A DNA stretch of 64,000 nt. It comes from a bacterium (lineage in GTDB: Bacteria; UBP14; UBA6098; B30-G16). The notes beneath the pieces are model-generated. The model was not told where the DNA came from, searched no databases, and saw only the letters and a program-made list of their open reading frames with translations. Both the position numbers and the translations under genes were made by a program. Within the stretch, counting starts at the first letter, position 1; each line of letters starts with the position of its first letter. The stretch lies in NCBI GenBank assembly GCA_030613005.1, contig JAUWMV010000010.1, positions 5,718 through 69,717 on the forward strand. The letters are read 5' to 3'. Positions 5,221-62,487 of this stretch are shown piece by piece.

Positions 5221-7377
5221 TTACTTTACCAAAATCAAAGATTTTCTCACAGTTTCGTTCGGTGTTGATAGGACAGCAAAATAAGTACCACTTGGTTGAT
5301 ATTTTGCATTCCAAATAAGAGTGTGCTTACCAGAAGGCAATACATCTTGAATAAGAACTTTAACTTTTCTGCCTGTGGCGTCGAATATTGTCAGATCGAC
5401 ATGAGTCTCGTTGGGAAGAACGAAATCGATCTCTGTGGATGCATTAAAGGGATTTGGATAATTGTCTAAAATCTCTAATTTTGTTGGAACCATATTTTTC
5501 AAATTGGTGGTCTTCGCTAACATTACCTCCACAATCGCTTTGTAGACATGTATTCCCTGAAACATATCAACGGAGAAAATGTAATTTCCAAATCCAGTAA
5601 GCTGAGTCCAATAGCCGTTTTTCGGCATATCAGCTACCATTTTTAGAGTTGGCAAACTGCTTATATCGAAAACTTTCAATTGACCGGGACCATCTGCAAC
5701 ATATGCATAATCCCCAAATATTCGAACATCCATTCCCCATACAGATGGATATGTGGACACAAGCCTTAACTTTTCTGGATTGCTGATGTCGATCACTGAA
5801 ACACCACTTTGTCCATCCGCAGCGATAATATATTTTCCCACAATCTCGAATCCATTGCCACCAGTTTGACTTGTATGAATGTATCCTATTTCAGCAGGAA
5901 ATTCTTTGGATAGGTCAAAAACATGGTATCCACCTAGAAAGTCCGAAGCGTAAAGAAGATCACCATCGAAATGAATATCGTAAAACTGTGCACTGTAGTC
6001 CTTTAATATAAACGAGGTATATATGTGACCTGCATTAAGAGGCATCAATGCTATCCCATCTTTTCCTAATGACACAGCGCAAAAATCGTTCCCGAATTCA
6101 ATTCTCCCAATTTTATCTGGTCCTCTTGCTGTGGATATTACGGGAATTTCATCGAAAGCACTGAGATTTTTGGGGCTTGCAACAACCATAAACACATCCT
6201 CTTTGATGCTGCTTCTGGCGCCCAGGATATAAAGAAGACCATTGTAAATCTGAACATCCCAAACAATTGTCAGATCCACGCCATAAACATTTCCAATTTT
6301 CAAAGGTCGCTCTGGATCTGATATGTCGTATACAAGAACACCCGATCGTCCTGCAGCAATGTATAAAACGTTGTCATAAATGCATATTCTTTTCGGAGTA
6401 TCATAGGTTTCTACATGACCAATTTCCATAGGTGCTCGGAAATTTGTAACATCAAACACATGAATTCCCATATGATCATTTGCTAAATAAATATCTTCAT
6501 CAACCTTTCCAAAATCCAATGTAGGCATGCCATCCAAATTCCATACTAAAACAGGATCACCTTCAATGAGCTCATAGATAGCAAAGTTCTTATATCCACC
6601 GGCATAAACGATTCCATCAAAAATTTGAACGGTCATCGGTGTAAGAAAAGGTATATTGAAAAGTCGTCTGCCAAAAATTTTCTTTTCGTTAGGTTTTTCA
6701 GCATCCCAGCGACCGTAAATAATAATGTTATTATGAAGCTGAAGCGATGTATATGTTCCCGGTTGATGCCCTAAAAGGAAAAATCTATTTTCCCTCGATA
6801 ATCCCACAACATAAATTCCCTTATTACCATTGGCTACATACAATCTGTTTTTAAACCAATCCATGCAAAGAGGTTTTCCATCGATATTAGCACGTGTTAA
6901 TAAACTGGGTGCATTTAAATCGGAGATATCTATCAAAGCCAAATATCCTTTTCCAGCCAGAAATAACCTGTTTTCATCAATTTCGAATGTAGAAAAATTG
7001 GTAAATACTGGATCCTTAAATTCAGGGAATTCGCCGAGAAGCAAAGGTTCATACGGTCTGGTTACATCAAATATTTCCAAACCTTCCTTTTCCCAAAGCA
7101 CAAAAAGTTTGTCTCCAACAACCTCCATCTTAACAATGGTGCTCGAATGACCTTTAACATCAGAAATAAGCTGTGGAAAATCTCGATTGAAAACGTTATA
7201 AATTCTAACAACACCACTCACACCGGCATACACCACTTCTCCATCGGATGTCATTGCTTGCACTCTACCCATAGGTATTTCAGCAACTTCCTCTAACTGA
7301 ACTGGACTACTTAATGCCAGAGAAGTTGCTAATAAAAATCCACATATCAAAGCTACACATTTTAGACCTTTCATCAT
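5221..7377 (-). CDS. Secreted LVIVD-repeat beta-propeller protein with T9SS C-terminal sorting domain
   Basis: Signal peptide. Recurring V(F/Y)D(I/V)S(D/N)P..P motifs characteristic of LVIVD repeats. C-terminal ~80 aa (NPFNASTEIDF...GTYFAVLS...LILVK) matches the T9SS/Por CTD pattern. Confidence 0.7.
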   Translation of the reverse strand: MMKGLKCVALICGFLLATSLALSSPVQLEEVAEIPMGRVQAMTSDGEVVYAGVSGVVRIYNVFNRDFPQLISDVKGHSSTIVKMEVVGDKLFVLWEKEGLEIFDVTRPYEPLLLGEFPEFKDPVFTNFSTFEIDENRLFLAGKGYLALIDISDLNAPSLLTRANIDGKPLCMDWFKNRLYVANGNKGIYVVGLSRENRFFLLGHQPGTYTSLQLHNNIIIYGRWDAEKPNEKKIFGRRLFNIPFLTPMTVQIFDGIVYAGGYKNFAIYELIEGDPVLVWNLDGMPTLDFGKVDEDIYLANDHMGIHVFDVTNFRAPMEIGHVETYDTPKRICIYDNVLYIAAGRSGVLVYDISDPERPLKIGNVYGVDLTIVWDVQIYNGLLYILGARSSIKEDVFMVVASPKNLSAFDEIPVISTARGPDKIGRIEFGNDFCAVSLGKDGIALMPLNAGHIYTSFILKDYSAQFYDIHFDGDLLYASDFLGGYHVFDLSKEFPAEIGYIHTSQTGGNGFEIVGKYIIAADGQSGVSVIDISNPEKLRLVSTYPSVWGMDVRIFGDYAYVADGPGQLKVFDISSLPTLKMVADMPKNGYWTQLTGFGNYIFSVDMFQGIHVYKAIVEVMLAKTTNLKNMVPTKLEILDNYPNPFNASTEIDFVLPNETHVDLTIFDATGRKVKVLIQDVLPSGKHTLIWNAKYQPSGTYFAVLSTPNETVRKSLILVK

Positions 7378-8991: not shown

Positions 8992-11958
8992 CTATTTGGG
9001 TTTAATTTGCAAAAACCCATTACCAATCGATAATATCCAATAGCCGATACTTGGTTCAATAGCATCCGGTTCTACGACAATATAAAGCTTCGACTCACAA
9101 TCCCATCGGAAAATACTCGATGGAACAATAAGGTCCGGTGGTTCAGTAGTGAATTCAGCGGGTCCATTGATTGCACCTACAAGGTTCCAACCTTTAACAA
9201 TAGGAATAATTGTTTCATTTACTGGAACACCACCAATTGTAATAGATTTATCTGCAGTAGAATAAATCCAGAAACCCTGACCTGCCTGCGTTCGTGAAAC
9301 GATATAGAAATTTCTTAGAACAGGATTATAAGCGAACGGTCCAGCGAAGATTTCATCAAAGCTTTCTGTCCAATTAGGCATATTTATTACAACTGGCGAA
9401 GAAAGAAGGTTCCAACCATTACATAGATCAAGATATGTTGCACCCGGTTCAGGTTGCGAGTATTCAATAACAAGATTTTCATTAGCGGAATAGAAATAAA
9501 TCGAATCTTCTCTCATATCGATATAGTTATTAAGAGTAAAAATACCGTCGGGCCAAAGTCTGGGATCCCAATATAGCGAACCAGGATTTTCGACTGTCAT
9601 TACAATCCATGTGCTTGGTATAGAGCTTATATTTCTTAAATCCCTTTCTAATCTTGTAATATGAGGATAGAGAGGATCATCGATCCAAATATAAACTTCG
9701 GTCAACTCAGGTGTCGTTGGTGATGAAAATATATCCATTAATGGATCATAACCATCTGTAGCTGAATAGTTGCAACCTATTGTCATTACATTCCTATCGA
9801 GATATCCTCCAGTAGGATCGAAACCATGGAAAATAAGATGCTGCATCCATGAAACTGTATTCCATCTTACAAAAATTGTAGCATCGTCGGAGTAATATCC
9901 TACTGTCCCATCGAGCAGTATCGCTGTGTCGATAAGCATTGGAGTGAAGGAAGCACCGGGAGCACTATTATTTATTAGAAGTTCAATGTCGATGAATTTA
10001 ATGTTCCGTAACATTGGGGTTATATTATTGCCGTCGATAAGCAAATAACCACTTCTTGAAGCATCAAAGTTTACTGTAAAACCATCTGCAGCTGTGCCAT
10101 CTGTTTTAACATCGAGAACCGAGACGATTTCAGGATTAAATTTTATTCCAATTGAGAAATCTGTAATAGAGAATCTAAACGGATCATCGCAATATAATGA
10201 GTACTTTACAGTAGTTCCAGGTTCCAAGGTCGTATCTCTAAAGTATAAGTAAAGATTGTCGACGAAGAAATTCCAGCATATATTAGATTCATTAGGACCA
10301 CAGTAATCATTCGTAACATTGTCCGCAGCGTAAACACACACATTGATCGTGTCACCCTTACCCCAGTTGTAGATACCGATCGGATGTAAACTAAATTCTC
10401 CATCCTCAAAAGTTACTGCTGGATCATCGATTCCATACTCATCGTCATTAACAGTCATTTTAATGCTTGAATTATCCAATCCTGATAGTAGATCGCTTAT
10501 ATTAACTGAAATAATTTCGGGCACTGAACCAAGTATTATGTTATCGAGTGGATAAACATTTTCAAGTATCGGTGGATCAAGGTCGAGCCTAAACCAATTA
10601 GTTATAGGAGCAGATAATGTACAACCACCTAAATCGTAAACATCGAGCAAACCATAATCGATTCTTTCTCCTGAGAAGAACTGCCCAGAATCGGGAGTGA
10701 AAGTTAAAATGCTGTCCTCGAATTCTAATCGCGGATCGGTGTTTGGGTCATAAATTTCACCGTCAACAGCAAATTCAATCGTTGATACATTAATACCTGC
10801 ATCATCATCTATTAATGCAATTCGAATTTCCTGAGGATCGCAGCCGCTCCAGACTCCAGTCTCAGGCCATATATTGTGAGCTTCAACAGGGGAACAGGCA
10901 CAATTTGGAATATACATGCATCCAGCACCTCGAACACTATGCATTGCAGATGAGGCATCAATTGTGAAGCACCCTTCTGCACCAATGCAACCCTGGGTGT
11001 AGTTTATCCTCCATACAAAATGTGCAGTATCTCCCGGTAAGATACTATCGCTTAGAACAGGATTTTGACCTCGTAATATCCTAATGCAAAATCCGGTCGA
11101 TAAATATGAAGCAATTCTTTGCTTGTATGGTGTGTTGTTTGCAACGTAACCTTCGATAAGCTGGAATATACCCAGTTTATCGAGCATGGAGTTATAAATT
11201 GATGAAAAACTTGTACCAAGCCGGAACCATTGTCCACCAGTGCTCTCCGCAACAGACCTATACCATTCTTCACAATAACCGTGTGGAAGCCTCATACAAT
11301 GAGTAGTATAAAGGGATGAACCTGTTACTGTAAATAGCATAAATGCACCATCCATAAGCTTATGCATTATCGTATCAGGATTTACACCTGATGTGCAATA
11401 CTCGGCACAGATTGAAGAATCCACACAGAATGGAGCATCGGTAAGAAGAATAATAACTCTCAATGCTCCAGATCTCCAGTGAATTGAGTCCATAGCTGCA
11501 TTTATCGCATCTAATGCCATCTCAGGTCCGTCGTCACCCTCTCCTGAACCTATTGGAGCCATCCAAGAATGAAATGTATCGATATTAGTCGTACAATCAT
11601 ACCCATGTGGAAAATTTTGCCCGTCGCCATAAGTAACAACATTCAAAGCATAATCGTAACCTGTAGCCTCCATAGTGTCAGCGAACTCCCTAATATTTGC
11701 CACTGCACCGACAATGTATCTGTACATGCTGCCCGTTGTATCGAGTACGAATACGATATCTACATTACCTGTATCCTGAGTACAGGTGATATCGAGTCTA
11801 AAGAATCCTGAATCCGAGAGCTCAAATGGATGAGTTATGCCCTTTCGGATTAGGTTAATTCCAATGATATCCAGCCCATAGTTATCTGGTGGATTATCCT
11901 TAGCGGTTACCATTGAAATAATTAATACGGGTAAAATCAACCATACCAATTTCCTCAC
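8992..11958 (-). CDS. Large secreted von Willebrand factor A (vWA) domain protein
   Basis: Signal peptide. MIDAS-like DIVFVLDTTGSM near the N-terminus. 988 aa Cys-rich extracellular-type composition. No clear T9SS CTD. Confidence 0.6.
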   Translation of the reverse strand: MRKLVWLILPVLIISMVTAKDNPPDNYGLDIIGINLIRKGITHPFELSDSGFFRLDITCTQDTGNVDIVFVLDTTGSMYRYIVGAVANIREFADTMEATGYDYALNVVTYGDGQNFPHGYDCTTNIDTFHSWMAPIGSGEGDDGPEMALDAINAAMDSIHWRSGALRVIILLTDAPFCVDSSICAEYCTSGVNPDTIMHKLMDGAFMLFTVTGSSLYTTHCMRLPHGYCEEWYRSVAESTGGQWFRLGTSFSSIYNSMLDKLGIFQLIEGYVANNTPYKQRIASYLSTGFCIRILRGQNPVLSDSILPGDTAHFVWRINYTQGCIGAEGCFTIDASSAMHSVRGAGCMYIPNCACSPVEAHNIWPETGVWSGCDPQEIRIALIDDDAGINVSTIEFAVDGEIYDPNTDPRLEFEDSILTFTPDSGQFFSGERIDYGLLDVYDLGGCTLSAPITNWFRLDLDPPILENVYPLDNIILGSVPEIISVNISDLLSGLDNSSIKMTVNDDEYGIDDPAVTFEDGEFSLHPIGIYNWGKGDTINVCVYAADNVTNDYCGPNESNICWNFFVDNLYLYFRDTTLEPGTTVKYSLYCDDPFRFSITDFSIGIKFNPEIVSVLDVKTDGTAADGFTVNFDASRSGYLLIDGNNITPMLRNIKFIDIELLINNSAPGASFTPMLIDTAILLDGTVGYYSDDATIFVRWNTVSWMQHLIFHGFDPTGGYLDRNVMTIGCNYSATDGYDPLMDIFSSPTTPELTEVYIWIDDPLYPHITRLERDLRNISSIPSTWIVMTVENPGSLYWDPRLWPDGIFTLNNYIDMREDSIYFYSANENLVIEYSQPEPGATYLDLCNGWNLLSSPVVINMPNWTESFDEIFAGPFAYNPVLRNFYIVSRTQAGQGFWIYSTADKSITIGGVPVNETIIPIVKGWNLVGAINGPAEFTTEPPDLIVPSSIFRWDCESKLYIVVEPDAIEPSIGYWILSIGNGFLQIKPK

Positions 11959-23213: not shown

Positions 23214-24137
23214 TTATTTAATATATAAGATTCTTTTTGATGCAGTCTGATTATCAACTGCCGCTCGAATAAAATAGACTCCGCTTTCTACCGATTTATT
23301 GGGATGCCAAACTATCGATTTGCGATTAGTATTCAGACACGACCAAATCAATCTTCCCTGAAGATCGATTATCTCAACTGTAGCGTGCTTAGGAGCTATG
23401 ATATTACATGCCGAATTAAATGGATTTGGAGTCACATCGATAGAAATATTTCGAGGTATATTTGTTAGAGCTTCGTCTATATCGCCAGTTCCATAACTAA
23501 GCAGCACTTCAATTATTTCGGTTGAATCAAAAGGATCGAGATACCAATTTTTTATTCTACCAACATCCTTAGCAAGCCACCAATACTGTTCTCCCCATTC
23601 AGTATTATCTGCATATATAGTATCGATACCTGAAAGAACTATATAAAATTCTTCTTGTATGATTTGCAACTTAACACAATCTGTAAATGAACCAGCAGGA
23701 ACACTGACATCTTCAAAAAAAATTGCACGAAAGTTCACAGACCAATGTTCAATATTCGTATACATTGAATCTACCCATGTTGTATCATGACTATAAACAA
23801 CCCATGAATCTCCAATATTAAAGGTATTGGGGAACATCTTCATTGTCATTGTATCAGGGAAATCTATTTCAATAAACCAAATACCATCAGGTCGAGTCTG
23901 ATAATATGTTGTATCTTCTGATCCCTCCCAGAGATCCACCCAAACGTAAGTTTTATAGCCTGACATTCTAATTGTGTCTACTATTGTTATAATACCGGTA
24001 TCCTTTCCAGACTCAGAGGAATCCTCATATGTCCAAGTATTACCGATTTCTAAAGGAAAATAATCTCTCGCATTGAGTGCAAATGCAGAAAATACTGGTA
24101 TTATAAGAAGCAATACTACTATTCCCTTGAATTTCAT
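23214..24137 (-). CDS. Secreted protein with T9SS C-terminal sorting domain
   Basis: Signal peptide. C-terminal NPFNSACNI...VEIIDLQGRL...GVYFIRAAV...ILYIK pattern typical of Por/T9SS CTD. Confidence 0.6.
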   Translation of the reverse strand: MKFKGIVVLLLIIPVFSAFALNARDYFPLEIGNTWTYEDSSESGKDTGIITIVDTIRMSGYKTYVWVDLWEGSEDTTYYQTRPDGIWFIEIDFPDTMTMKMFPNTFNIGDSWVVYSHDTTWVDSMYTNIEHWSVNFRAIFFEDVSVPAGSFTDCVKLQIIQEEFYIVLSGIDTIYADNTEWGEQYWWLAKDVGRIKNWYLDPFDSTEIIEVLLSYGTGDIDEALTNIPRNISIDVTPNPFNSACNIIAPKHATVEIIDLQGRLIWSCLNTNRKSIVWHPNKSVESGVYFIRAAVDNQTASKRILYIK

Positions 24138-31246: not shown

Positions 31247-32302
31247 TTATTTAACTACTCTTTTTGTCTTTTTGGGTTCAGCGGGTTTTTCCTCGGTTGC
31301 TGCGTCCTCCTCAGCAGGTTTTCCTTCCTCAGCTTCCTTCTCAGCCATTGCAACTTCTTCACCTTCTACTGGGATCGTTAAGCCTAATTCTGCAGCTCTT
31401 TTTTCATTTATTACCTTATAACCAGTGTCAATAGTAACAATAGGAATGTCGGCAGGTTTGGTTCCATCTAAGATACTAATAACCATCTCACCTGCGGCTT
31501 TACCTTGATCCGCACCGTTTAGACTGTATTCGCAAAGGAATTCATCTTCTACAGGATAGAGACTCAATTCGGGAAGTTTATTATTATCAATTATCCACTT
31601 TACAACCATTTCGGCAGGTAAATTGATTTCGCTTGTTTCATCGGTAAGAGTGAGGCATGAATAAAAACCGATAGCATCAACAGTAGTCTGATATTCAGCA
31701 ATCTTTTCCTTCCAACCATTGAAATCATCGGAAATATAGACTTCTACAAGTTCTATTGGCAATTCCGTCTCTTTCAACCGAGCCATAACAAGTTGTGATG
31801 TAGGACTTTCATCAGAAATAAATGCTATCTTCTTCACATCGGGAGCTAAAGATTTCAAGAGTTCAAAAGCTTTATCGAATTGATCTCTCTCGATAACACC
31901 TGTAACATTTCCATCAGGGAAATTGTAAGCTGCAGGATCGTTATTAACACCTGCAAACACGATAGACATCTTATCACCAACATGATTCTTACCAACTAAT
32001 TCACATGCATTATCGTCAAACAAAACTAACACCTTGGGCTTGAACTTTTTAATCTTTTTCTCGGTATTTTCAGCAGATTCAAGTTTCCAATCCTCATCCG
32101 TTTTACTTTTAGTGTCCATATAATAGATTTCTAAATTTATCTCCTTTTCACCAAGAGCTTCCTTCAAACCGTCCAACTCCTCCGTACACCATGCAAATTC
32201 TTCATTATAACTGAAAACAACCAAAACCTTTGGTGGCCTCTTTGCGCACCCCATAAAGCTAACCATAATCAAGACTAACATAACCCATAAAATCCTTTTC
32301 AT
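31247..32302 (-). CDS. Lipoprotein, probable ABC-transporter-type substrate-binding (ABC_sub_bind/BMP-like) protein with acidic C-terminal tail
   Basis: Lipobox SFMGC. Periplasmic-binding-fold-like alternation. ATG at 32302 with AAGGAGG Shine-Dalgarno. The ORF-track start at 32320 is a TTG. Confidence 0.45.
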   Translation of the reverse strand: MKRILWVMLVLIMVSFMGCAKRPPKVLVVFSYNEEFAWCTEELDGLKEALGEKEINLEIYYMDTKSKTDEDWKLESAENTEKKIKKFKPKVLVLFDDNACELVGKNHVGDKMSIVFAGVNNDPAAYNFPDGNVTGVIERDQFDKAFELLKSLAPDVKKIAFISDESPTSQLVMARLKETELPIELVEVYISDDFNGWKEKIAEYQTTVDAIGFYSCLTLTDETSEINLPAEMVVKWIIDNNKLPELSLYPVEDEFLCEYSLNGADQGKAAGEMVISILDGTKPADIPIVTIDTGYKVINEKRAAELGLTIPVEGEEVAMAEKEAEEGKPAEEDAATEEKPAEPKKTKRVVK

Positions 32303-32905
32303 GTCCCCCTCCTTTTTCAAAGGATTATTCCATGTTAAACATAATTTTCTTTATTTACAATATTACACATTAATATCACAGGATGAATAAACCAATTATC
32401 ATCACTAATCTAAAAATGTTTATAAACTAACCCGAACCCAAATTACTTTATCAACAATTTACCCCTATAAAATCAAAGCTCTAATAAATCTATACCAACC
32501 TTAGAGTTATCCATAGTCATAAAAGTAACACTTACTTCTGCCAACTCCCGATAAATATAGAAACTATTTATACTCCGCTAACCTTAGAGAGAATCGCAAA
32601 CCATGACCTAATAAGTCTTAAAAATATCCCTGTGTAACTGAACAGTTAATAGTAATCAAAAAGAATAAAACGAACTTTTCTCATCTCCCCCCAAAGATTA
32701 GAAAAGACGATAACCCTAAAAACTGAATATATAATACTTCAATTAAGACAATTAACAAGAAAATTCTCACTATTTTTTTTTGTTTGATAAATATTTTTTT
32801 TCATATCTATGAAACTTTAAATTATCGGTAAGCTTTCATTTTCTATTGCTTAACACACTCAAAATGTTAGTTTAGGATTCCAGATATCACTGAATTGAGG
32901 AAATA

Positions 32906-33907
32906 ATGAAATCACCATTGCTCTTTACTGGCAAAACCGACTATGCATATGCGTCAGGTGTAATAAGAGGTCTCGAGAATTACCTTCTTGGTCGAAGTGA
33001 ATATCAGAAGTTAATAGATTCCGATCCAGATAGTATAGACAATGTTTTGGCAGAATTTGGATATTCGAGTAGCGAGAAAGATCCTGAGATAGCGCTCAGT
33101 CTTGCAACAGAGAAACTGTTCGAAACAATTGATAAATTATCTAAAGGGGATAAAATAGCCGATATCTGGAAAGTTAGAGCCGATTTCTCGAAAATTTCTG
33201 CCATTGTTAAATCAATACTTTTAGACACTGAACCACCGGAGTTAGTAAATTGGGGATTTCTCAACTCTGAAGAGCTCAGCAGAGAGATTTACTACCATTT
33301 CGATCCCGAAAAAAAATGCTCGCTTCCGGTTCATTACATTAAAACAATAGAGAGAGCACAATCAAATTTCAAAAGCCATAAAACAACTCTTTCTGTGGAT
33401 ATTGCTGTGGATAACTCATTTTCTGATTATGTGAGTACTATTATTCCGAGAAGTGAGTATTTTAAACGATTTTGGAGTTTTTATGTGGACTGGTGGAATG
33501 TTAAGGCTTTCGTTCGAATCCGGAAAGCTAAATTGTCGTCAAGCATATTTTATGATACATTTAATGCTGCTGGAGATATTCCACTTAGCATATTTACTGA
33601 CGCTATGGAAAGCGATAGTGAGCGATTATCAACGCATTTTATGCATACAGAATACGGAAAAGGTTTACAAGACGTTATTAAGCAAGCATTTGAGGGCATG
33701 CTTATCCCACTCGACAATTATTTCCGAGGGAAACTTCTTGTACACTATAAATATACACGGTATTGCCTTTACGGTCTCGAGCTCCTTTTAGCATATGAAA
33801 GCATAAAACTCGAGGAAATAGCAATACTAAGAACAATTATCCGAGCCAAGAAAGCTCGATTACCTGTCAATAAACTTAAGGAGGTAATAAACTTTGCCTT
33901 GGAATAA
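32906..33907 (+). CDS. V-type ATP synthase subunit C (d subunit)
   Basis: N-terminal DYAYASGVIRGLENYLL and overall ~330-aa helical protein resemble NtpC/AtpC of V/A-ATPases. Confidence 0.65.
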   Translation: MKSPLLFTGKTDYAYASGVIRGLENYLLGRSEYQKLIDSDPDSIDNVLAEFGYSSSEKDPEIALSLATEKLFETIDKLSKGDKIADIWKVRADFSKISAIVKSILLDTEPPELVNWGFLNSEELSREIYYHFDPEKKCSLPVHYIKTIERAQSNFKSHKTTLSVDIAVDNSFSDYVSTIIPRSEYFKRFWSFYVDWWNVKAFVRIRKAKLSSSIFYDTFNAAGDIPLSIFTDAMESDSERLSTHFMHTEYGKGLQDVIKQAFEGMLIPLDNYFRGKLLVHYKYTRYCLYGLELLLAYESIKLEEIAILRTIIRAKKARLPVNKLKEVINFALE

Positions 33908-34223
33908 ACTTGCAGCAATAGGAGATTTCTCCACAGTTTTCCCGTTAAAGGCAATCGGTATCGAGGTGCATCCTGTGGACGATAATGAAGATGTGGCAAA
34001 AATTCTTCGTAATTTAGCGATAAGCAAAGAGTTCGGTATTATATTCGTAACAGAGAGCCTATTGAAACCTGCACAGGAAGTTATGAACGAGTTCTTAGAT
34101 AAAGAGATGCCTGCAATAATCACAATCCCGAGTATTAGTGGCTCTCAGGGGTTAGGAGTATCGCGAGTTCGCGAGATAATGAAACGTGCTGCCGGTCGCG
34201 ATATTATGGCTGAAGAAGACTGA
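33894..34223 (+). CDS. V-type ATP synthase subunit F
   Basis: ~109 aa. LAAIGD...GFxxAG-like N-terminus and IPS...G pattern of V-ATPase F. TTG start with AAGGAGG Shine-Dalgarno 8 nt upstream. Overlaps the C-subunit stop. Confidence 0.6.
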   Translation: MPWNKLAAIGDFSTVFPLKAIGIEVHPVDDNEDVAKILRNLAISKEFGIIFVTESLLKPAQEVMNEFLDKEMPAIITIPSISGSQGLGVSRVREIMKRAAGRDIMAEED

Positions 34224-34290
34224 CTTCATTAATTCTTCCTAAATTTCACTCCTGAATATTATCCTTTGAAAATTGATCTTGGAAGTATTG

Positions 34291-34385
34291 TTGTATGCTC
34301 CCCCCTCATCCTAAATCCTTCTCCCCGAGGAGAAAGACTTTCCATGTTGTCCTTCGTCTGGTTGTCCTGGTCGAATTCACCGAGC
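34291..34385. repeat. Copy A of ~85-95-bp hairpin-containing repeat (CCCCTCATCCTAAATCCTTCTCCCCGAGGAGAARGACTTT..CATGTTGTCCTTCGTCTG..TCCTGGTCGAATTC...)
   Basis: Near-identical to copy B at 35881..35975. Shares its 3' 32 nt with partial copy C at 34972..35010. Contains an 8-bp stem CCTTCTCC/GGAGAAGG with a CCGA loop. Confidence 0.85.
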
Positions 34386-34580
34386 TGCTTTGTAGGATAA
34401 ATTTTAGAGCTGTTGTTTCTCATCAGGTGTTATCTCTTTTCGAAATTTTCTATAATATTTAATAGCCATGCCTATGATCCATATAATATTAAAACCTAAA
34501 CCCCAAAATAAAATTCTTAAATCGTTTTTTAAGTATAATACCGAAAAAACTGAAAAGTAAATAAATATCAATTGGTATAT

Positions 34581-34817
34581 CTAAAAGATAGGCACAGCCA
34601 CTGTTTTAAACATATCCTTTGTTTTTGAAGCAAATTTAATCATCATAAATAGCAATACTGGTGAAATTAGAAAAAATCTTAAAATTGCGTTTTTTACAAA
34701 ATCTTCTCTTGGTAAATGTTTGTATGGGGAGCACAATACCATTAAAATCCACATCAAACATAAAATATAAATAGTAATGTATTTTCTTTTGTTAGAAATC
34801 TGTTTTCTTTTATTCAT
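34581..34817 (-). CDS. Hypothetical small membrane protein (2 predicted TM helices)
   Basis: Strong AAGGAG Shine-Dalgarno before the ATG. Hydrophobic segments. Confidence 0.4.
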   Translation of the reverse strand: MNKRKQISNKRKYITIYILCLMWILMVLCSPYKHLPREDFVKNAILRFFLISPVLLFMMIKFASKTKDMFKTVAVPIF

Positions 34818-34835
34818 AGCATTTCTCCTTGAATT

Positions 34836-34890
34836 ATGTCCCTACTTAAATTTTTAATAATATAATTATCTTTGTTTCAAGTAGGGACAT
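34836..34890. repeat. Perfect 12-bp inverted repeat ATGTCCCTACTT / AAGTAGGGACAT separated by a 31-nt AT-rich spacer, immediately 5' of the 34581..34817 gene
   Basis: Read directly. Arms at 34836-34847 and 34879-34890. Confidence 0.8.
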
Positions 34891-34971
34891 TTTACTCTGT
34901 AATTTAATCCTACTAAGACATACTTTATTTCGAAAAAATCCTTCTCTTGCACCAATGATATCGTTTCCACT

Positions 34972-35010
34972 CGTTGTTGTCCTGGTCGAATTCGTCGAGC
35001 TGCTTTGTGC
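34972..35010. repeat. Partial copy C of the islet repeat (TTGTCCTGGTCGAATTCGTCGAGCTGCTTTGTG)
   Basis: Matches the 3' portion of copy A at 34358..34390 with 2 substitutions. Confidence 0.7.
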
Positions 35011-35107
35011 TGTCGAAATCGAAACCGGAGTCGCGGGAACCTGTTTCATAGTTGCGAAGGTTTCCAAGAAAGTCTATGTTCTCATGATGAAGCATTTTTC
35101 ATCGTCA

Positions 35108-35395
35108 TTATAGTATGAATTCTTGCTTTACGCCTTCAACTACTCTAACTCTCTTTACTGTCATAGGTCTATCCCATCTAGAAAATCTGTTGCGAAAATC
35201 CCAATAATATGCTTCTACTATTTTATTATTTTCAACAATAAAAGTGTCAACAAATGTATAAATATAGTATTGTCTTAACTTACCTTTGTAAAACTTACTA
35301 TTTCTATAAACATAAGGATGTTTACTGAAACTGATAAGGGTATAACCTCCTTTGAATAAATCAGTTCGAAACCCATGCTTTATGAAAATATACAT
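35108..35395 (-). CDS. Hypothetical basic protein; may be a frameshifted continuation of the 35380..35757 ORF
   Basis: ORF only. No Shine-Dalgarno. Its ATG lies inside the last codons of the upstream ORF (AAATAAATGTAT). Confidence 0.2.
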   Translation of the reverse strand: MYIFIKHGFRTDLFKGGYTLISFSKHPYVYRNSKFYKGKLRQYYIYTFVDTFIVENNKIVEAYYWDFRNRFSRWDRPMTVKRVRVVEGVKQEFIL

Positions 35396-35757
35396 TTATT
35401 TGAATCTGTTATGTCGTTTACATGAGTAATCGATTTAACATAAACAGAGGGATTATATGATCTTACAAATTTCTCCTCACCAGGCTTCCCAATCCAAAGA
35501 GAGTAATCACCACCATATCCACCATTAAATATAATATCTCTATTTCGAACCTGAGCTCTGATACCTTTGCAAACATCCTCGAATGCTAATTCATTGAGTA
35601 AATTCCAAGATGGTATAATCATGTTTACAAACCTTGGTATTGCTGTCATACATATAATTACTATAAATAGCATTGAAGTAAATATTGCAATTAGGATCAT
35701 AAAATAAATCCATCTCGCAACAACACATCTGAATATAGCATTAATACATGTATTCAT
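35380..35757 (-). CDS. Hypothetical protein with N-terminal TM helix
   Basis: AGGGGAA Shine-Dalgarno 4 nt before the ATG. N-terminal hydrophobic helix then a ~90-aa soluble region. Confidence 0.4.
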   Translation of the reverse strand: MNTCINAIFRCVVARWIYFMILIAIFTSMLFIVIICMTAIPRFVNMIIPSWNLLNELAFEDVCKGIRAQVRNRDIIFNGGYGGDYSLWIGKPGEEKFVRSYNPSVYVKSITHVNDITDSNKCIFS

Positions 35758-35880
35758 TTAAGTTCCCCTATTTAAGACTTACTAAATGCACGAATTTTTA
35801 TAATCACTAATTATTTTAACAACATTATTTAAAGAGCCAATTTCTTTCATCAACAAATAAACCAATGTCAAAGTAGTTTG

Positions 35881-35975
35881 AAATCACCTCCCCTCATCCT
35901 AAATCCTTCTCCCCGAGGAGAAGGACTTTTCATGTTGTCCTTCGTCTGATCGTCCTGGTCGAATTCGTTGATGTG
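35881..35975. repeat. Copy B of the islet repeat
   Basis: ~90% identical to copy A over ~85 nt including the hairpin. Confidence 0.85.
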
Positions 35976-36022
35976 TAAGTTTTTGCTGTGGTTTAATTAG
36001 TATCTCGATCCAAGTAATTAAT

Positions 36023-36289
36023 TTACTTTTCATCTATTCCCATAAACCATTTCGGATATTTAAAACGCATCACTATCTGTATAATAATGAGACCACTGAG
36101 ATATAGCACAATACATAAGGATAAGGAAAATTGTTTGAATGAGGTATATTTATCACCTGTTAAATAACTGAATATAGTAGATTTTTCTAACATAAATACA
36201 AAAGAAGAATACAACACAATTATACCAAGAAGGATGTAAAAAAGAATAAGGCGAATTATGCTCCTGGTTTTATTAATGCTATCCACCAT
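36023..36289 (-). CDS. Hypothetical small membrane protein (2 TM helices)
   Basis: ORF with two hydrophobic segments. Weak Shine-Dalgarno. Confidence 0.3.
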   Translation of the reverse strand: MVDSINKTRSIIRLILFYILLGIIVLYSSFVFMLEKSTIFSYLTGDKYTSFKQFSLSLCIVLYLSGLIIIQIVMRFKYPKWFMGIDEK

Positions 36290-36436
36290 CCTGCTTTACA
36301 TTTTTCACTCAAATCTCTAATATTATACATATATTCATTTAAATTTGCAAATAAAAACAATTTAATTTGAGTTTTACTCCCTGAAATAAAAATTGTGGTG
36401 GAAATCTAAATTAAAAATTTAATAAATTGTATTCAT

Positions 36437-44863: not shown

Positions 44864-47800
44864 ATGTATAAGTTGTTGTTTGCGACTGTGTTACTCTTAG
44901 TAAGTTTGTCATTCGGATTTGTTGCATATGAAACTGGTCTTCCTGAAATTAATGTGGATTACCCCAAAGCAGTAAACATTTCAGGGTTAGAGCGCCTTAA
45001 CATTAATGATATATTAACGATAAAAGTTAAAGTTGATCCTATTGGTGGAAACGTAGTACACATGATACCAGAACCTATTACTACGAAATTAAATAGAATC
45101 GAGAATGCACAGGATGCTGTAAGCGCTGCTTTTGATTTTGCTAGAACATATACTTCCTTGATAGGAGTACCACCTGAAAACCTCTGTTACCAACGCTCAG
45201 AAAAGATAAGAAAATTCTGGTATGTTACGCTTGACCAGCATTACAACGGAACACTTGTTATAGGAGGCAATGCTGAATTCAGGATAAACGATAAAGGTGA
45301 AGTATTCTTCTATCACAGTGGCATAAAACCTATGGACAAACCACTTGTGTCAGAAACAATTAGCAAATCCAAAGCATTAGATCATGCAATAGAATTCTTG
45401 GGTGTAAGCGATTATGAACTAAGAGAATCGCATATTCGAATTGCAGCTATTCCAAATGGAAAGGAATATGAAGGAAAATATGTCTGGTGGCTCAAAATAA
45501 TGATAAACAAACCCTTAGCGTTATACATAATCTGGATCGATGCTCAGACGGGTAAGGTTTTACGTGCACTTAACGAACTACCAACACTTTCCGGGAAGGT
45601 AGAAATACAATATCATCCGGAATTCGCAGATGATACAATGCGAGTGGGAAACATGAAATACGCTTTTCTGCAAGTTAACGGCACAGGTGCTTACACTGAT
45701 TCTTTTGGAAATTATTCTGTAGCTGGGAGCACACCACCTTTTAATTTTCACCCAAAGCTATATGGCAACTACTGTGAGGTAACTCGCAATAGCTCGAGCC
45801 CGAGTTCTAATATGGATACAACAGTCACTGGACCCACATACGATCATCTATGGTGTACACCACCTGCAATTGAAAACGAAATAAATATATACTATCATGT
45901 AAATGTAGTTCACGATTTCGTTAAGAACTATCTGGGTTATTCGCGGATGGATTATAGAGTTAAGGGGAATGTGAGTGATTCCAGAATTCGAGATAATGCA
46001 TTCTCAGATGGAACGAATATAAATTTCGGAGTTCCGAATAGACTAAATGATCTATCGATGCATGCAGATGTGGTCTATCACGAATATCAACACTTAGTAA
46101 CTGCAAGAGTTTACAGTGGTGTGTCCTTCCCCTATTCAGGAGAATCTGGAGCAATAAACGAAGCCCTGTCTGATTATTTTCCGTGTTCATTCCTAAACGA
46201 TCCTTTAATTGGAAATAGAGTTAATCCCTCCGCTCCAAGTTACTATATGAGGAATTTGAATAATCGATTGATGTATCCAACAGATCTAGTAGGCGAAGTA
46301 CATTATGACAGTAGAATAATTTCTGCAGTTTGGTGGGAGATTCGAACTGCATTGGGTATCGGATACACCGACTCTCTTGTACACCGAACGCGGTTCGGAC
46401 ATCCCGTTAATTTCGAAGAATATTTAGATGAGATGTTAGTGGCTGATGACGACGATGGGAATCTATCCAACGGAACACCGAATTCAGAAGCAATATTTAT
46501 TGCATATAACAATCATGGCATAGGACCGGAAAAATTAATGTGCATCACCCATAGATGCATAGGTGATCAGGAGGATACAACTGGGGAATACTTTGTTAGT
46601 GCAAAAATATTCACAGTATTAGAAATCGATTCTACAGCTTTTTGTTACAGAGTCGATTTTTCTTCTTGGAGCTGCACTACTTTAACATACACTGGTTCTA
46701 CTTGGGTTGCAAATATCCCAGCTCAGCCAATAAACTCCCTTGTACATTACCAATTTTATATCAAAGCACCCAGTGGGTTCGATGTTAAAGAACCTCCAGG
46801 AGCTGGCTTTTTTTCTTTCCGAGTTGGAAAAGATTCGATTCCACCTATAGTAAATCACACACCAATAGTTAATGCATCCCTTTCAATATGGCCACCAGAG
46901 CTTGTAGCTCAAGCAACCGATAATGGTTCTGTTCGAGGCGTAACGTTGGAATACTCAATAAATGGAACTTCACAACCTGCTATTCCATTTTCTTACGATT
47001 ACTATGAAGATATATGGAAAACCAATTTCCCAACAACTTTTCCTAGTATTAATGACACAATAGATTATAGAATTATAGCCACAGATAACTCCGTTGCTGC
47101 AAATGTAGGTTTCGCTCCCGACAGTATTTCTATGTTCAGATTTATTGTCGCATTAAGCTTTTTTGAGGATGTAGAAACCGGTGCTCCTGGTTGGCGTGAT
47201 TACAGCGTAACCTCAACATATACAAACCAATGGCACGTTTCTACAGCAAGGAAACTCAGTGGTAGTCGCAGCTTTAAATGTGGCGGATCAGGACATTCAG
47301 ACTATGCTGATGGTTTGGATGCTGGACTTATGACGCCTGTAATTTTCGTTTCCAATGAAGATACTCTTTTCTTCTATCATTGGATCGACGCCGAAAAAGA
47401 TGATACTCATCCAGGATATGCTTGGGATGGCGGAATTGTCGAGGTTAATCTTGTAGGCACAGAAGAATGGAGACAGTTAGATCCGATTGGTCATTATCCA
47501 TATAGGACACGAAGCAATCTCGCATCACCATTTCCGGCTAATACACCTTGTTATTCCGGTACTCAGGATTGGAATATTGCTGTTTTTCCGTTGGATTTTC
47601 TTGGATATGTGAAATTCAGATTTAGATTTGGGAGCGACGCTCATATAACTGGTGAAGGTTGGTATATCGATGATATAAGAACAACAAACTGGACATTTGG
47701 TCCTTGGATAGAAGAGCAAATAACACACCTTCCTCAAAGTATTAACATCGATATTACTCCGAATCCTTTTAATTCATCTGTTTCCTTTTCAATTCTTGTT

Positions 47801-47995
47801 CCCGAAGATGGTTCGATTTCTGTTGTTGTTATGGATATTGTTGGGAAGCATAGCTACACAGTTTACAAAGGCGAAGTTAATGTAGGAATACTTGGACTTA
47901 CATGGCAACCATCTGATATTCCAGCAGGCATATACCTTGTTCGTGTCAGAAATAACGATTATGAAACTGTAAAAAAGATATATTACATTAAGTAA
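44864..47995 (+). CDS. Secreted zinc metalloprotease (HExxH) with propeptide-like N-terminal region and T9SS C-terminal sorting domain
   Basis: Signal peptide. HEYQH zinc-binding motif with a downstream E (GAINEALSD). C-terminal NPFNSSVSFS...GIYLVRV...IYYIK T9SS CTD. GEGWYIDDIRT motif is shared with the 1..2024 protein. Confidence 0.6.
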   Translation: MYKLLFATVLLLVSLSFGFVAYETGLPEINVDYPKAVNISGLERLNINDILTIKVKVDPIGGNVVHMIPEPITTKLNRIENAQDAVSAAFDFARTYTSLIGVPPENLCYQRSEKIRKFWYVTLDQHYNGTLVIGGNAEFRINDKGEVFFYHSGIKPMDKPLVSETISKSKALDHAIEFLGVSDYELRESHIRIAAIPNGKEYEGKYVWWLKIMINKPLALYIIWIDAQTGKVLRALNELPTLSGKVEIQYHPEFADDTMRVGNMKYAFLQVNGTGAYTDSFGNYSVAGSTPPFNFHPKLYGNYCEVTRNSSSPSSNMDTTVTGPTYDHLWCTPPAIENEINIYYHVNVVHDFVKNYLGYSRMDYRVKGNVSDSRIRDNAFSDGTNINFGVPNRLNDLSMHADVVYHEYQHLVTARVYSGVSFPYSGESGAINEALSDYFPCSFLNDPLIGNRVNPSAPSYYMRNLNNRLMYPTDLVGEVHYDSRIISAVWWEIRTALGIGYTDSLVHRTRFGHPVNFEEYLDEMLVADDDDGNLSNGTPNSEAIFIAYNNHGIGPEKLMCITHRCIGDQEDTTGEYFVSAKIFTVLEIDSTAFCYRVDFSSWSCTTLTYTGSTWVANIPAQPINSLVHYQFYIKAPSGFDVKEPPGAGFFSFRVGKDSIPPIVNHTPIVNASLSIWPPELVAQATDNGSVRGVTLEYSINGTSQPAIPFSYDYYEDIWKTNFPTTFPSINDTIDYRIIATDNSVAANVGFAPDSISMFRFIVALSFFEDVETGAPGWRDYSVTSTYTNQWHVSTARKLSGSRSFKCGGSGHSDYADGLDAGLMTPVIFVSNEDTLFFYHWIDAEKDDTHPGYAWDGGIVEVNLVGTEEWRQLDPIGHYPYRTRSNLASPFPANTPCYSGTQDWNIAVFPLDFLGYVKFRFRFGSDAHITGEGWYIDDIRTTNWTFGPWIEEQITHLPQSINIDITPNPFNSSVSFSILVPEDGSISVVVMDIVGKHSYTVYKGEVNVGILGLTWQPSDIPAGIYLVRVRNNDYETVKKIYYIK

Positions 47996-60905: not shown

Positions 60906-61955
60906 TTATTTAGGTTCCAATTCCTCTTCCCTAAAAGTTTTAAGCGGAAGTTCCTCTTCCCAATCTCTCCCGGACTTGTATTCGAAAATCGATTGAACAT
61001 TCTCGGATATCCATTTGAAAATTTGTCCAACGATAATGTCCTCTGGGCAGGCTTCCTCGCAAGCACCACACGCAACACAACTAGTAGCCATATGAGCCAT
61101 TCGTCCTATGTGGAAAAGCATAACATCGGTAGGCGCTCTAAGTCCACCTTTGCGAGAAGCCAGATCAAGGAATACATCACCCTCGAAATCCATTGCGTCC
61201 GACTCGAAAAAGCACTCTTTGCAAATACAAATCGGGCAATTGGTCATACAATTATGGCAATTAATGCAATGAGCAAATGTTTTAAAAATATTATCTGTTC
61301 CGCTGCACTCGGACTTTAAGTTCTCATATAATGCTGTCTTCGCTTTAAGCTTCATATCCATAACAGACTTCAAGCCCTCATCTGGTGCGGACTCAACGAA
61401 TTGAACTCCCAATTTTTCGAGGAAATTTTTCCCAGTCTCAGTTTGTGCAATAATAGGAGTGTCCTTCTCGAAGGTCAGGTAACTGAAATCCGCAGTTTCA
61501 GAGCGTATATAATCACAACTCTTGCATATCTCTCGAAGTTCAAATTTTCCATCCGAAGCTGATTTAATAAATTCCTGCGATTTAGGTATTTCTTTATCTT
61601 TCAAGTCCTTTCTGGCGATTGTTCCATAGCAATCAAACGTTGCATATATAATATTTTTGTTTTGTATTTGAACTAATTTAACTAGTTCGACGACAGCACG
61701 CATCTCGCACGGTTTAAGTATTGCTAATATAGGTTTATTGGGAGGAGCTACTTTGGTAATTCTTTTTATGAAATTAGCACAATTATCAGGGAAATAAGGA
61801 ATCATTGAATCCACATCTTCCAACATCTCCGGATCGGTAATCAATGCATGAACCGCTGCATCGGGAGCAGTTCTCTTAAGTGTAATCACTCCTCCGATAA
61901 TTCCGTCTTTTAGTGCTTTTTTACTAAGTTCTGTCAAAACATCGTTTGTGACCAT
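60906..61955 (-). CDS. FrhB/FdhB-like coenzyme F420 hydrogenase/dehydrogenase beta-subunit family protein with 2x[4Fe-4S] ferredoxin motifs
   Basis: CINCHNCMTNCP and CVACGACEEACP cluster motifs. N-terminal FrhB_N-like region. GGGGAGG Shine-Dalgarno before the ATG at 61955. Confidence 0.6.
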   Translation of the reverse strand: MVTNDVLTELSKKALKDGIIGGVITLKRTAPDAAVHALITDPEMLEDVDSMIPYFPDNCANFIKRITKVAPPNKPILAILKPCEMRAVVELVKLVQIQNKNIIYATFDCYGTIARKDLKDKEIPKSQEFIKSASDGKFELREICKSCDYIRSETADFSYLTFEKDTPIIAQTETGKNFLEKLGVQFVESAPDEGLKSVMDMKLKAKTALYENLKSECSGTDNIFKTFAHCINCHNCMTNCPICICKECFFESDAMDFEGDVFLDLASRKGGLRAPTDVMLFHIGRMAHMATSCVACGACEEACPEDIIVGQIFKWISENVQSIFEYKSGRDWEEELPLKTFREEELEPK

Positions 61956-62061
61956 TTACGCCTCCCCTGATAGGCTTTGATGATAATCGATTTGCGTTAT
62001 ACAGAATTCTTCTATGTCATATCTATAAATTTTATAACTTGAAGCAGTTAACTAAAACAGG

Positions 62062-62487
62062 TTACGATTCCCAGTTCTGACTTAGTTCTGCCACCCCCAT
62101 TTTCCTTAGTTTTTCAGTAAACTCAGTAATCTTCTTAACAAACTTACGACCTTCGCTTGCGCTGATCCACTCTAAATATATTCTCTCCTGCTCCAATCCT
62201 AAGATTTCAAATATTTTCCTGAGTATTGCTATCCTTCGTCGAGCTTTAAAATTGCCTGAAATATAATGACAATCGCCAGGATGACAGCCACCAATTATAA
62301 CGCCATCAGCACCAGAAAGCAATGCCCGTATTACATAGCTTGGATCGACGGAGCCAGAGCACATTACTCTAATAGGTCTAACATTGGCTGGATATTCCAT
62401 TCGTGAAGTGCCTGCCATATCAGCAGCAACGGATGTACACCAATTACAGAAAAAACCAACTATTTTGGGTTCGAAATTATCTGGCAT
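62062..62487 (-). CDS. MvhD/FlpD-like methyl-viologen-reducing hydrogenase delta subunit family protein
   Basis: FFCNWC...C...GCHPGDCHY Cys pattern characteristic of MvhD. AAGGAGG Shine-Dalgarno before the ATG at 62487. Confidence 0.75.
   Translation of the reverse strand: MPDNFEPKIVGFFCNWCTSVAADMAGTSRMEYPANVRPIRVMCSGSVDPSYVIRALLSGADGVIIGGCHPGDCHYISGNFKARRRIAILRKIFEILGLEQERIYLEWISASEGRKFVKKITEFTEKLRKMGVAELSQNWES

What the first reader, a model, noticed from the sequence alone, without database searches (positions are those of the whole stretch)
32906..34223. Orphan V-type ATPase C and F subunit genes without A/B/D/E/I/K partners
V/A-type ATPase operons are normally contiguous (I-K-E-C-F-A-B-D). 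Here only the C (d) and F genes are present, with a translationally overlapping F start. They are preceded by a 585-bp gene-free region and followed immediately by the repeat-bearing islet instead of atpA/atpB. Either the operon was split or truncated by the insertion, the catalytic genes lie elsewhere, or these are remnants.
Basis: partly seen in the sequence, partly recalled or inferred. Interest (0 to 1): 0.55.

Follow-up and report, generated by a model that had tools for sequence, protein, structure and literature searches.

The report
Split V-type ATPase: stand-alone C-F genes
Two intact, working genes for the central-stalk subunits (C and F) of a rotary V/A-type ATPase sit alone because this uncultured lineage keeps its ATPase genes in several places; this is an unusual gene order, not a broken or new machine.

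Summary
Window 32906-33907 (+) encodes a V/A-ATPase subunit C and 33894-34223 (+) a subunit F, overlapping by 14 nt, and no other ATPase gene lies in the 64 kb.

- **Not remnants.** dN/dS against ~94%-identical strains is 0.09-0.13 for C and 0-0.02 for F, lower than alaS next door (0.18).
- **Not truncated by the islet.** In six related lineages whose sequence reaches past F (26-45% C identity), the operon G-I-(methyltransferase)-K-E-C-F also ends at F. Only a distant outgroup (L017) continues into A.
- **Partners lie elsewhere.** A contig from the same sequencing run as a 100%-identical copy of the window carries bactofilin-G-I-K-E. It has matching GC and tetranucleotide composition. A 36.7-kb sister contig shows that operon ending at E.
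- **A graded series.** The E|C junction goes from adjacent, to one inserted gene, to two, to full separation in this genus.

Their existence is inferred from selection on all six located subunits. The K subunit keeps the Na+-binding residues of Enterococcus hirae NtpK.

This is an ordinary enzyme with fragmented gene order, of low to modest interest.

The parts
32321..32905 (.). 585-bp intergenic spacer between the divergent ABC substrate-binding-protein gene (31247-32320, minus) and C. Presumed to carry the promoter(s) of the C-F bicistron.
   Evidence: Only ORFs of 29 aa or less. No Rfam family. No remnant of E, I, K or methyltransferase genes by tblastn. About 93% identical with indels across three strains. 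Promoter-like sites are no more frequent than in shuffles: 12 found vs 8.2 +/- 2.6 expected. One is at 32850-32878, 28 nt upstream of the ATG. The promoter is inferred, not shown.
32683..32770 (.). 88-nt block invariant in all three strains, inside the spacer. Candidate regulatory element.
   Evidence: no substitution in 88 columns, against about 6-8% pairwise divergence around it. Weak fold only (z = -2.0 on the plus strand, -0.7 on the minus strand). Function unknown.
32906..33907 (+). V/A-type ATPase subunit C (eukaryotic d; atpC/ntpC), 333 aa. This is the socket that couples the D-F shaft to the K-ring.
   Evidence: PF01992 84.6 bits. Clade profile vs 1R5Z E=4.8e-10 over full length. dN/dS 0.09-0.13. 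GAGG ribosome-binding site 6 nt upstream of the ATG. Identical protein P0143 is on a 69.7-kb NCBI contig and in Logan run SRR12623518.
33878..33884 (+). Shine-Dalgarno AAGGAGG for F, lying inside the 3' end of C.
   Evidence: Read directly from the sequence. AAGGAGG or GGGAGG at the same position in L001, L004, L006 and L014.
33894..34223 (+). V/A-type ATPase subunit F (atpF; NtpG in E. hirae), 109 aa. TTG start overlaps the C stop (33905-33907) by 14 nt, giving translational coupling.
   Evidence: PF01990 66.5 bits. 3AON_B E=1e-11. dN/dS 0-0.02. TTG start and N-terminus L[PS]W[NS]K[LI]AA[IV]G conserved in L001, L004, L006 and L014.
34224..36426 (.). Context only, not part of the ATPase: the strain-variable islet between F and rimP-nusA-infB. 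It has three copies of a roughly 100-nt repeat (34283-34393, about 34960-35010, 35871-35981) separating small minus-strand ORFs.
   Evidence: L001 and L002 carry different cargo at the same place. No intrinsic terminator for C-F was found after F.

Best explanation
**What it is.** C and F form a functional, translationally coupled two-gene operon, presumably with its own promoter in the 585-bp spacer. They encode two central-stalk subunits of a single, probably Na+-coupled, V/A-type rotary ATPase.

**Where the other genes are.** In this genus the enzyme's genes are spread over at least three loci:
1. bactofilin-G-I-K-E, found on L021 and L022.
2. C-F, in this window.
3. A-B-D, not located and inferred.

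**How it arose.** The separation happened in two steps.
- The F|A linkage was lost in an ancestor of a broad clade of uncultured bacteria, so the break is old.
- The E|C junction then became a recurrent site of insertion: adjacent in L006, L013 and L014; one methyltransferase gene in L004/L005; methyltransferase plus a restriction-modification gene in L023. In the window's genus it was severed completely. C-F moved away while G-I-K-E kept the ancestral bactofilin neighbourhood.

The variable islet downstream of F is a later, unrelated neighbour.

**Shown versus inferred.** Shown: gene identity, selection, clade-wide gene orders and the existence of the second locus. Inferred: that L021 is the same genome, that A-B-D exist, the position of the promoter, and assembly into one holoenzyme.
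For: - **Family identity:**
- **Purifying selection stronger than on housekeeping neighbours:** C 0.09-0.13 and F 0-0.02, against alaS 0.18 and the substrate-binding protein 0.30-0.47.
- **Conserved coupling:** TTG start, Shine-Dalgarno sequence and 14-nt overlap are conserved across lineages only 39-45% identical in C.
- **The operon ends at F in relatives:** L004/L005, L006, L009/L011, L014, where the next gene is a membrane protein, and L023. Outgroup L017 has the canonical I-K-E-C-F-A with a GPFGSGKT Walker A motif.
- **Second locus, L021:** it comes from Logan run SRR12623518, as does L003, which is 100% identical to the window. Its GC is 0.372 against 0.368 for the window. Its tetranucleotide correlation with the window is 0.972, against 0.967-0.988 for confirmed conspecific contigs and 0.16-0.93 for other clade loci.
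- **Matching clusters:** the C and I clusters each have 5 members with matching source patterns.
- **Sister contig L022 (36.7 kb):** G-I-K-E ends at E against a convergent PDZ gene. No C, F, A, B or D lies within 10 kb on either side. It carries a 38-nt copy of the islet repeat core, 97% identical.
- **G, I, K and E are under selection:** omega 0.12-0.34.
- **Congruent history:** I, K and E from L021 and C and F from the window rank the other lineages identically, and C-F have native GC and GC3.
- **Ancestral position:** bactofilin-G-I synteny is shared with L012, L013 and L023.
- **Ion specificity:** K keeps Thr64, Gln65, Gln110 and Glu139 of E. hirae NtpK (residues named in PMC2359735).
Against: - A, B and D were never found for this genus or for any member of the clade, so the catalytic head is inferred only.
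- The link between L021 and the window is circumstantial (same run, composition, congruent distances, shared repeat). It is not physical linkage.
- The homologue searches depend on shared 5-residue words, so a second, divergent C/F pair could have been missed.
- No promoter or terminator could be pinned down. Promoter-like hits are not enriched over shuffles, and no intrinsic terminator follows F.
- Both proteins fall below NCBIfam's equivalog cut-offs.
Confidence: 0.8

Rival explanations
1. The variable islet inserted between F and A and truncated or split a once-contiguous C-F-A-B-D operon in this genome.
For: The islet starts 60 nt after the F stop. It is strain-variable and so clearly mobile or recombinogenic. 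Related contigs break at the repeat.
Against: - The operon ends at F in five other lineages with unrelated downstream genes and no islet.
- Beyond the islet lies rimP-nusA-infB-rbfA, not A-B-D.
- No A/B-like sequence exists anywhere in the 64 kb.
Confidence: 0.03
2. C and F are decaying leftovers of a V-ATPase that this lineage has lost.
For: They are isolated from all partners within 64 kb. They score below NCBIfam's equivalog cut-offs. An apparent 45-aa deletion was seen in the L002 copy.
Against: - dN/dS is 0.09-0.13 for C and 0-0.02 for F across three species-level lineages, and both reading frames are intact.
- The coupling signals are conserved.
- The L002 'deletion' is a masked run of N, not a real deletion.
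- G, I, K and E are intact and under selection at a second locus.
Confidence: 0.03
3. The pair is a redundant paralogous copy, and a complete V-ATPase operon with its own C and F lies elsewhere in the genome.
For: Some bacteria carry two V-type ATPase gene sets (own knowledge). The whole genome could not be searched.
Against: - The only I-K-E locus attributable to this genus lacks C and F. It ends at E against a convergent gene.
- The C search found a single C cluster for this genus.
- The evolutionary distances of C and F match those of I, K and E, as expected for one set.
Confidence: 0.05
4. The clade has no A/B/D at all. G-I-K-E-C-F would form a 'headless' V-ATPase-derived membrane complex with another role, such as an ion channel or a partner for a different motor. 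The embedded methyltransferase might contribute.
For: A-B-D are absent next to the operon in every lineage examined. A methyltransferase gene lies inside the operon in several lineages.
Against: - In every characterised V/A-ATPase, E and G bind the A3B3 head and F binds D (established structural knowledge, for example the Thermus and E. hirae structures matched).
- F is the most strongly constrained gene measured here.
- At most 10 kb on either side was inspected, so absence nearby says nothing about the rest of each genome.
Confidence: 0.06

Closest known systems
Enterococcus hirae Na+-translocating V-type ATPase (ntp operon; structures 3AON and 2BL2)
   Same: F is the best solved match (NtpG/F, E=1e-11 over full length). 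The lineage's K is the best match to NtpK (E=1.6e-23) and keeps all four side-chain Na+ ligands. The subunit set G, I, K, E, C, F is the same.
   Different: In E. hirae all the genes form one contiguous operon, ntpFIKECGABDHJ (own knowledge). Here they are split over at least three loci. K has an extra N-terminal hydrophobic segment of about 30 residues.
Thermus thermophilus V/A-ATPase (subunit C structure 1R5Z; single atp operon G-I-L-E-C-F-A-B-D)
   Same: The clade's C profile aligns end to end with Thermus subunit C (E=4.8e-10). The relative order G-I-K-E-C-F is the same in the clade's unbroken members.
   Different: Thermus continues directly into A-B-D (own knowledge), as does outgroup L017. 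This clade stops at F, and the window genus also separates C-F from E.
Scattered A/V-ATPase genes in some archaea, such as Nanoarchaeum equitans, several Crenarchaeota, and haloarchaea with a separate atpD (own knowledge, not checked here)
   Same: The genes of one rotary ATPase are dispersed over several loci while the enzyme stays functional.
   Different: Those cases are archaeal and break at other points. A stand-alone C-F bicistron in a bacterium was not found in the literature held here, but that search was shallow.
'Partial V/A-type ATPase' calls in MAG surveys, such as Cloacimonadota Clade A (PMC12590816)
   Same: Uncultured anaerobic lineages from similar habitats are reported with incomplete V/A-ATPase gene sets.
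   Different: That report rests on gene presence or absence in MAGs, and the lineage is not shown to be the same. The window's relatives are labelled only 'bacterium'.

Membership tests
V/A-ATPase subunit C / d (Pfam PF01992, vATP-synt_AC39) | Full-length match to the family profile above the curated cut-off | tested here: met
   84.6 bits against a cut-off of 29, profile positions 2-338 of 339.
V/A-ATPase subunit C / d (Pfam PF01992, vATP-synt_AC39) | End-to-end sequence similarity to a structurally solved subunit C | tested here: met
   Profile A4 against 1R5Z (T. thermophilus subunit C): E=4.8e-10, residues 12-326 against 4-319. The single sequence alone gave no PDB hit.
V/A-ATPase subunit C / d (Pfam PF01992, vATP-synt_AC39) | Reaches an NCBIfam equivalog cut-off for subunit C | tested here: not met
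   Best is NF002266 at 105 bits against a cut-off of 270. The protein is a divergent member. This is a naming threshold, not a fold or function test.
V/A-ATPase subunit C / d (Pfam PF01992, vATP-synt_AC39) | Encoded in an operon with other V/A-ATPase subunits | tested here: met
   Overlaps F in the window. Orthologues sit in G-I-K-E-C-F operons in L006, L014 and L023.
V/A-ATPase subunit F (Pfam PF01990, ATP-synt_F) | Full-length match to the family profile above the curated cut-off | tested here: met
   66.5 bits against a cut-off of 23.5, profile positions 2-89 of 91.
V/A-ATPase subunit F (Pfam PF01990, ATP-synt_F) | Sequence similarity to solved F subunits | tested here: met
   3AON_B E=1.1e-11. 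2I4R, 2QAI and 2D00 at E=0.002-0.004.
V/A-ATPase subunit F (Pfam PF01990, ATP-synt_F) | Reaches an NCBIfam equivalog cut-off for subunit F | tested here: not met
   NF002384 at 90.2 bits against a cut-off of 114.
Complete V/A-type ATPase holoenzyme (A3B3-D-F-C-E-G-I-K) | Membrane and stator subunits G, I, K and E encoded in the same genome | tested here: met
   L021 (same sequencing run, matching composition) and L022 carry intact G-I-K-E under purifying selection. Assignment to the same genome is inferred, not physically linked.
Complete V/A-type ATPase holoenzyme (A3B3-D-F-C-E-G-I-K) | Catalytic A and B subunits and shaft subunit D encoded in the same genome | not testable with these tools
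   Absent from the window and from 10 kb on either side of the G-I-K-E locus.
Complete V/A-type ATPase holoenzyme (A3B3-D-F-C-E-G-I-K) | Physical assembly and ion-coupled ATP hydrolysis or synthesis | not testable with these tools
   Needs biochemistry. The only indirect evidence is conservation of the Na+ ligands in K.

The most novel reading that the evidence does not exclude
A broad clade of uncultured bacteria, including this genus, has dispensed with the A3B3-D catalytic head. It would keep G-I-K-E-C-F, often with an embedded SAM-dependent methyltransferase, as a V-ATPase-derived membrane complex with a different function or a different motor.
Probability: 0.05. Interest if true: 0.8.

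Novelty: new member of a known kind. Interest (0 to 1): 0.2.

Why it matters
The main value is practical. Pathway surveys of metagenome-assembled genomes often score a V/A-ATPase as 'partial' or 'absent' when the expected contiguous operon is not found (PMC12590816 reports one such case). This case shows an intact, selected enzyme whose genes are split over three loci. Completeness calls for this clade should therefore be made on the whole genome and not on the operon.

It also gives a tidy natural series of stepwise operon break-up at one junction (E|C). The C-F pair stays translationally coupled throughout, which suggests that matching the amounts of these two stalk subunits matters more than linkage to the rest. 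The conserved Na+ ligands point to sodium bioenergetics in this uncultured anaerobic lineage. None of this changes what is known about how the enzyme works.

Tried and rejected
- **Remnants of E, I, K or methyltransferase genes in the 585-bp spacer:** none found by tblastn at E up to 10.
- **A 45-aa in-frame deletion in the L002 copy of C as a sign of decay:** rejected, because it is a masked run of N.
- **L010 as the nearest outgroup** (67% identity over 48 aa): rejected. The N-terminus is conserved everywhere, and L013, the same type, is 45% identical over 204 aa.
- **L012/L013 as this species' E locus:** rejected on GC (0.43) and because C follows E directly.
- **L016** (875 nt, GC 0.367, K-E with no C start after E) as this species' locus: its E is only 39% identical to L021's, so it is another lineage. 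It may be a second case of E|C separation, but the contig is too short to tell.
- **RNA families around the genes:** only sub-threshold whalefall-1 hits, on the islet repeats.
- **Promoter and terminator scan:** uninformative.
- **Folding of the invariant spacer block:** no convincing structure.
- **Taxonomy of CSMAG_2881 from the cold-seep catalogue and the Cloacimonadota paper:** not in the supplements held here.
- **Metagenome scan with the C alignment:** only five short loci.
- **Locating A-B-D:** not achieved.

Full report
**1. The observation**

- C: 32906-33907 (+, ATG, 333 aa).
- F: 33894-34223 (+, TTG, 109 aa), overlapping C by 14 nt.

C matches Pfam PF01992 at 84.6 bits (cut-off 29) over nearly the whole profile. 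F matches PF01990 at 66.5 bits (cut-off 23.5). NCBIfam's V-type C and F models are the best hits, but both fall below their equivalog cut-offs (105 vs 270; 90 vs 114). The proteins are therefore divergent members.

Two independent checks agree. F aligns over its full length with the solved Enterococcus hirae NtpG(F) (3AON_B, E=1e-11). A profile of the clade's C proteins aligns end to end with Thermus thermophilus subunit C (1R5Z, E=4.8e-10).

The 585-bp spacer (32321-32905) holds only ORFs of 29 aa or less. The first islet repeat begins 60 nt after the F stop.

Nothing else in the window belongs to a rotary ATPase.
- tblastn with clade G, I, K, E and methyltransferase proteins, and with a bona fide A fragment (GPFGSGKT), hits only C and F.
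- Pfam assigns the remaining ORFs of at least 100 aa to unrelated families.

**2. Are the genes alive?**

I compared the window with two species-level relatives (L001 and L002, about 93.6% nucleotide identity).

| Gene | dN/dS |
|---|---|
| C | 0.09-0.13 |
| F | 0-0.02 |
| alaS | 0.18 |
| DUF4139 gene | 0.18 |
| Wzy-like gene | 0.18 |
| ABC substrate-binding protein | 0.30-0.47 |

An apparent 45-aa deletion in the L002 copy is a masked run of N, not a real deletion.

F's TTG start, its AAGGAGG Shine-Dalgarno sequence (33878-33884) and the 14-nt overlap recur in lineages only 39-45% identical in C. C-F have the GC and GC3 of their neighbours. These are working native genes, not remnants.

**3. 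Was the operon cut by the islet?**

No. Relatives retrieved through C, E and I searches show the following gene orders.

| Locus | Gene order |
|---|---|
| L006 | G-I-MT-K-E-C-F, then genes on the opposite strand |
| L014 | G-I-MT-K-E-C-F, then a membrane protein |
| L012/L013 | parA-parB-M23-bactofilin-G-I-MT-K-E-C (contig ends) |
| L004/L005 | K-E-PCMT-C-F, then unrelated genes |
| L023 | parAB-M23-bactofilin-G-I-K-E-PCMT-[1085-aa Eco57I-type enzyme]-C-F, then the opposite strand |
| L009/L011 | I-K-E-C-F, then about 1 kb with no A |
| L017 (distant outgroup) | canonical I-K-E-C-F-A |

MT is a SAM-dependent methyltransferase gene. PCMT is a PCMT-type methyltransferase gene.

The loss of F-A linkage is therefore clade-wide and old. 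It is independent of the islet, which is strain-variable even within the genus.

**4. Where are the partners?**

A profile search with subunit I returned P0027. Its contig L021 comes from Logan run SRR12623518. That run also yielded L003, which is 100% identical to the window over 10.9 kb.

Evidence that L021 is the same organism:
- GC is 0.372, against 0.368 for the window.
- Tetranucleotide correlation with the window is 0.972. Confirmed conspecific contigs give 0.967-0.988, and other clade loci give 0.16-0.93.
- The window's exact C protein (P0143) and P0027 each occur on a long NCBI contig (69.7 and 50.5 kb) and in Logan. Both clusters have five members.

L021 carries lexA-like (minus strand), then bactofilin-G-I-K-E.

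The sister contig L022 (36.7 kb, 94% identical to L021) shows the operon ending at E against a convergent PDZ gene. No C, F, A, B or D lies within 10 kb on either side. L022 also carries a 38-nt copy of the islet repeat core, 97% identical, about 6.7 kb from E.

G, I, K and E are under purifying selection (omega 0.34, 0.19, 0.12 and 0.25). I, K and E from L021 and C and F from the window rank the other lineages identically: {L005, L023, L012, L014} > L006 > L011/9 > L017. That is what one vertically inherited gene set would give.

Bactofilin-G-I synteny is shared with L012, L013 and L023. G-I-K-E therefore stayed in place, and C-F is the piece that moved.

A-B-D were not found. The budgets that could target them were exhausted. 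Their existence is inferred from selection on six subunits that, in all characterised enzymes, act only with A3B3-D.

**5. How it most likely works**

C-F is a bicistron transcribed from the spacer (inferred; the consensus scan was uninformative). It is translated with coupling, through the overlap and an internal Shine-Dalgarno sequence.

Subunit C is the socket between the D-F shaft and the K-ring, and F binds D. This is established structural knowledge for the Thermus and E. hirae enzymes matched.

The lineage's K subunit matches E. hirae NtpK best (E=1.6e-23). It conserves Thr64, Gln65, Gln110 and Glu139, the Na+ ligands described in PMC2359735. The enzyme is therefore probably Na+-coupled.

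The E|C junction shows a graded series: adjacent, then one inserted gene, then two inserted genes, then separate loci. It behaves as a soft spot, and C-F behaves as a separable module.

**6. Comparison with what is known**

By Pfam and structure-sequence criteria these are members of the V/A-ATPase C and F families. They fail only NCBIfam's strict naming cut-offs.

The closest characterised systems are the contiguous ntp operon of E. hirae and the atp operon of T. thermophilus. Dispersed A/V-ATPase genes are known in some archaea (own knowledge). A shallow literature search found no description of a stand-alone bacterial C-F pair. One MAG survey reports a 'partial V/A-type ATPase' in part of the Cloacimonadota (PMC12590816).

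The lineage itself is labelled only 'bacterium', and I could not place it taxonomically.

**7. Verdict**

This is a real feature with an ordinary function and an unusual but explicable gene order. Interest is 0.2. The only reading that would raise it is that the clade lacks A/B/D altogether. That is not excluded but is unlikely (about 5%).

Noticed in passing
window 34224-36426; L001 4113-5019; L002 11221-12508; L022 19984-20021: A strain-variable islet lies between F and rimP. Three copies of a roughly 100-nt repeat separate small minus-strand ORFs for hydrophobic proteins (78, 125+95 and 88 aa). L001 and L002 carry different cargo at the same site, and contigs break at the repeat. The repeat core (hairpin TCTCCTCGGGGAGA) gives sub-threshold Rfam hits to whalefall-1 RNA (19.9 and 17.2 bits against a gathering score of 37). 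A 38-nt copy occurs elsewhere in the genus.
   Followed up: partly
window 32683-32770: An 88-nt block of the C-F upstream spacer is invariant in three strains that otherwise differ at about 6-8% of positions. It has no Rfam match and no convincing fold. It could be a regulatory site for C-F or for the divergent ABC substrate-binding-protein gene.
   Followed up: partly
L006 2062-2796; L012 8495-9229; L013 5909-6643; L014 2117-2848: A SAM-dependent methyltransferase gene (Methyltransf_11/23/25/31) sits between subunits I and K inside the V-ATPase operon of several clade lineages. It is absent from the window genus (L021/L022) and from L011 and L017. Its role is unknown.
   Followed up: no
L004 644-1366; L005 1611-2333; L023 13842-17834: The E|C junction has repeatedly taken up foreign genes: a PCMT-type methyltransferase in L004/L005, and that gene plus a 1085-aa Eco57I/N6_Mtase-type restriction-modification enzyme in L023.
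   Followed up: partly
L021 4393-4950: This lineage's K (proteolipid) subunit is a duplicated four-helix type. It keeps all four side-chain Na+ ligands of E. hirae NtpK and has an extra N-terminal hydrophobic segment of about 30 residues.
   Followed up: partly
L016 1-875: A short contig with GC 0.367 carries K-E followed by 57 nt with no C start. This may be a second lineage in which E and C are separated. Its E is only 39% identical to L021's.
   Followed up: partly
L002 about 10569-10646: A masked run of N inside the C gene of this public MAG contig looks like a 45-aa in-frame deletion in ORF lists (288 vs 333 aa). It is an artefact to watch for.
   Followed up: yes
window 63588-63990: Diverged tandem-like direct repeats (143-nt and 94-nt units, 73-78% identity) lie inside a minus-strand ORF at the window's end (63020-63871). 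They probably encode beta-propeller-type protein repeats.
   Followed up: no
window 5224-7377, 23217-24137, 44864-47992: Three secreted proteins carry Por_Secre_tail (type IX secretion) sorting domains. This points to an FCB-group-like uncultured lineage. NCBI labels its relatives only 'bacterium'.
   Followed up: no
window 60909-62487: An MvhD/FlpD-like gene lies next to a 4Fe-4S dicluster protein gene, suggesting a hydrogenase or heterodisulfide-reductase-type electron-bifurcating module. That would fit an anaerobe using a Na+ V-ATPase.
   Followed up: no
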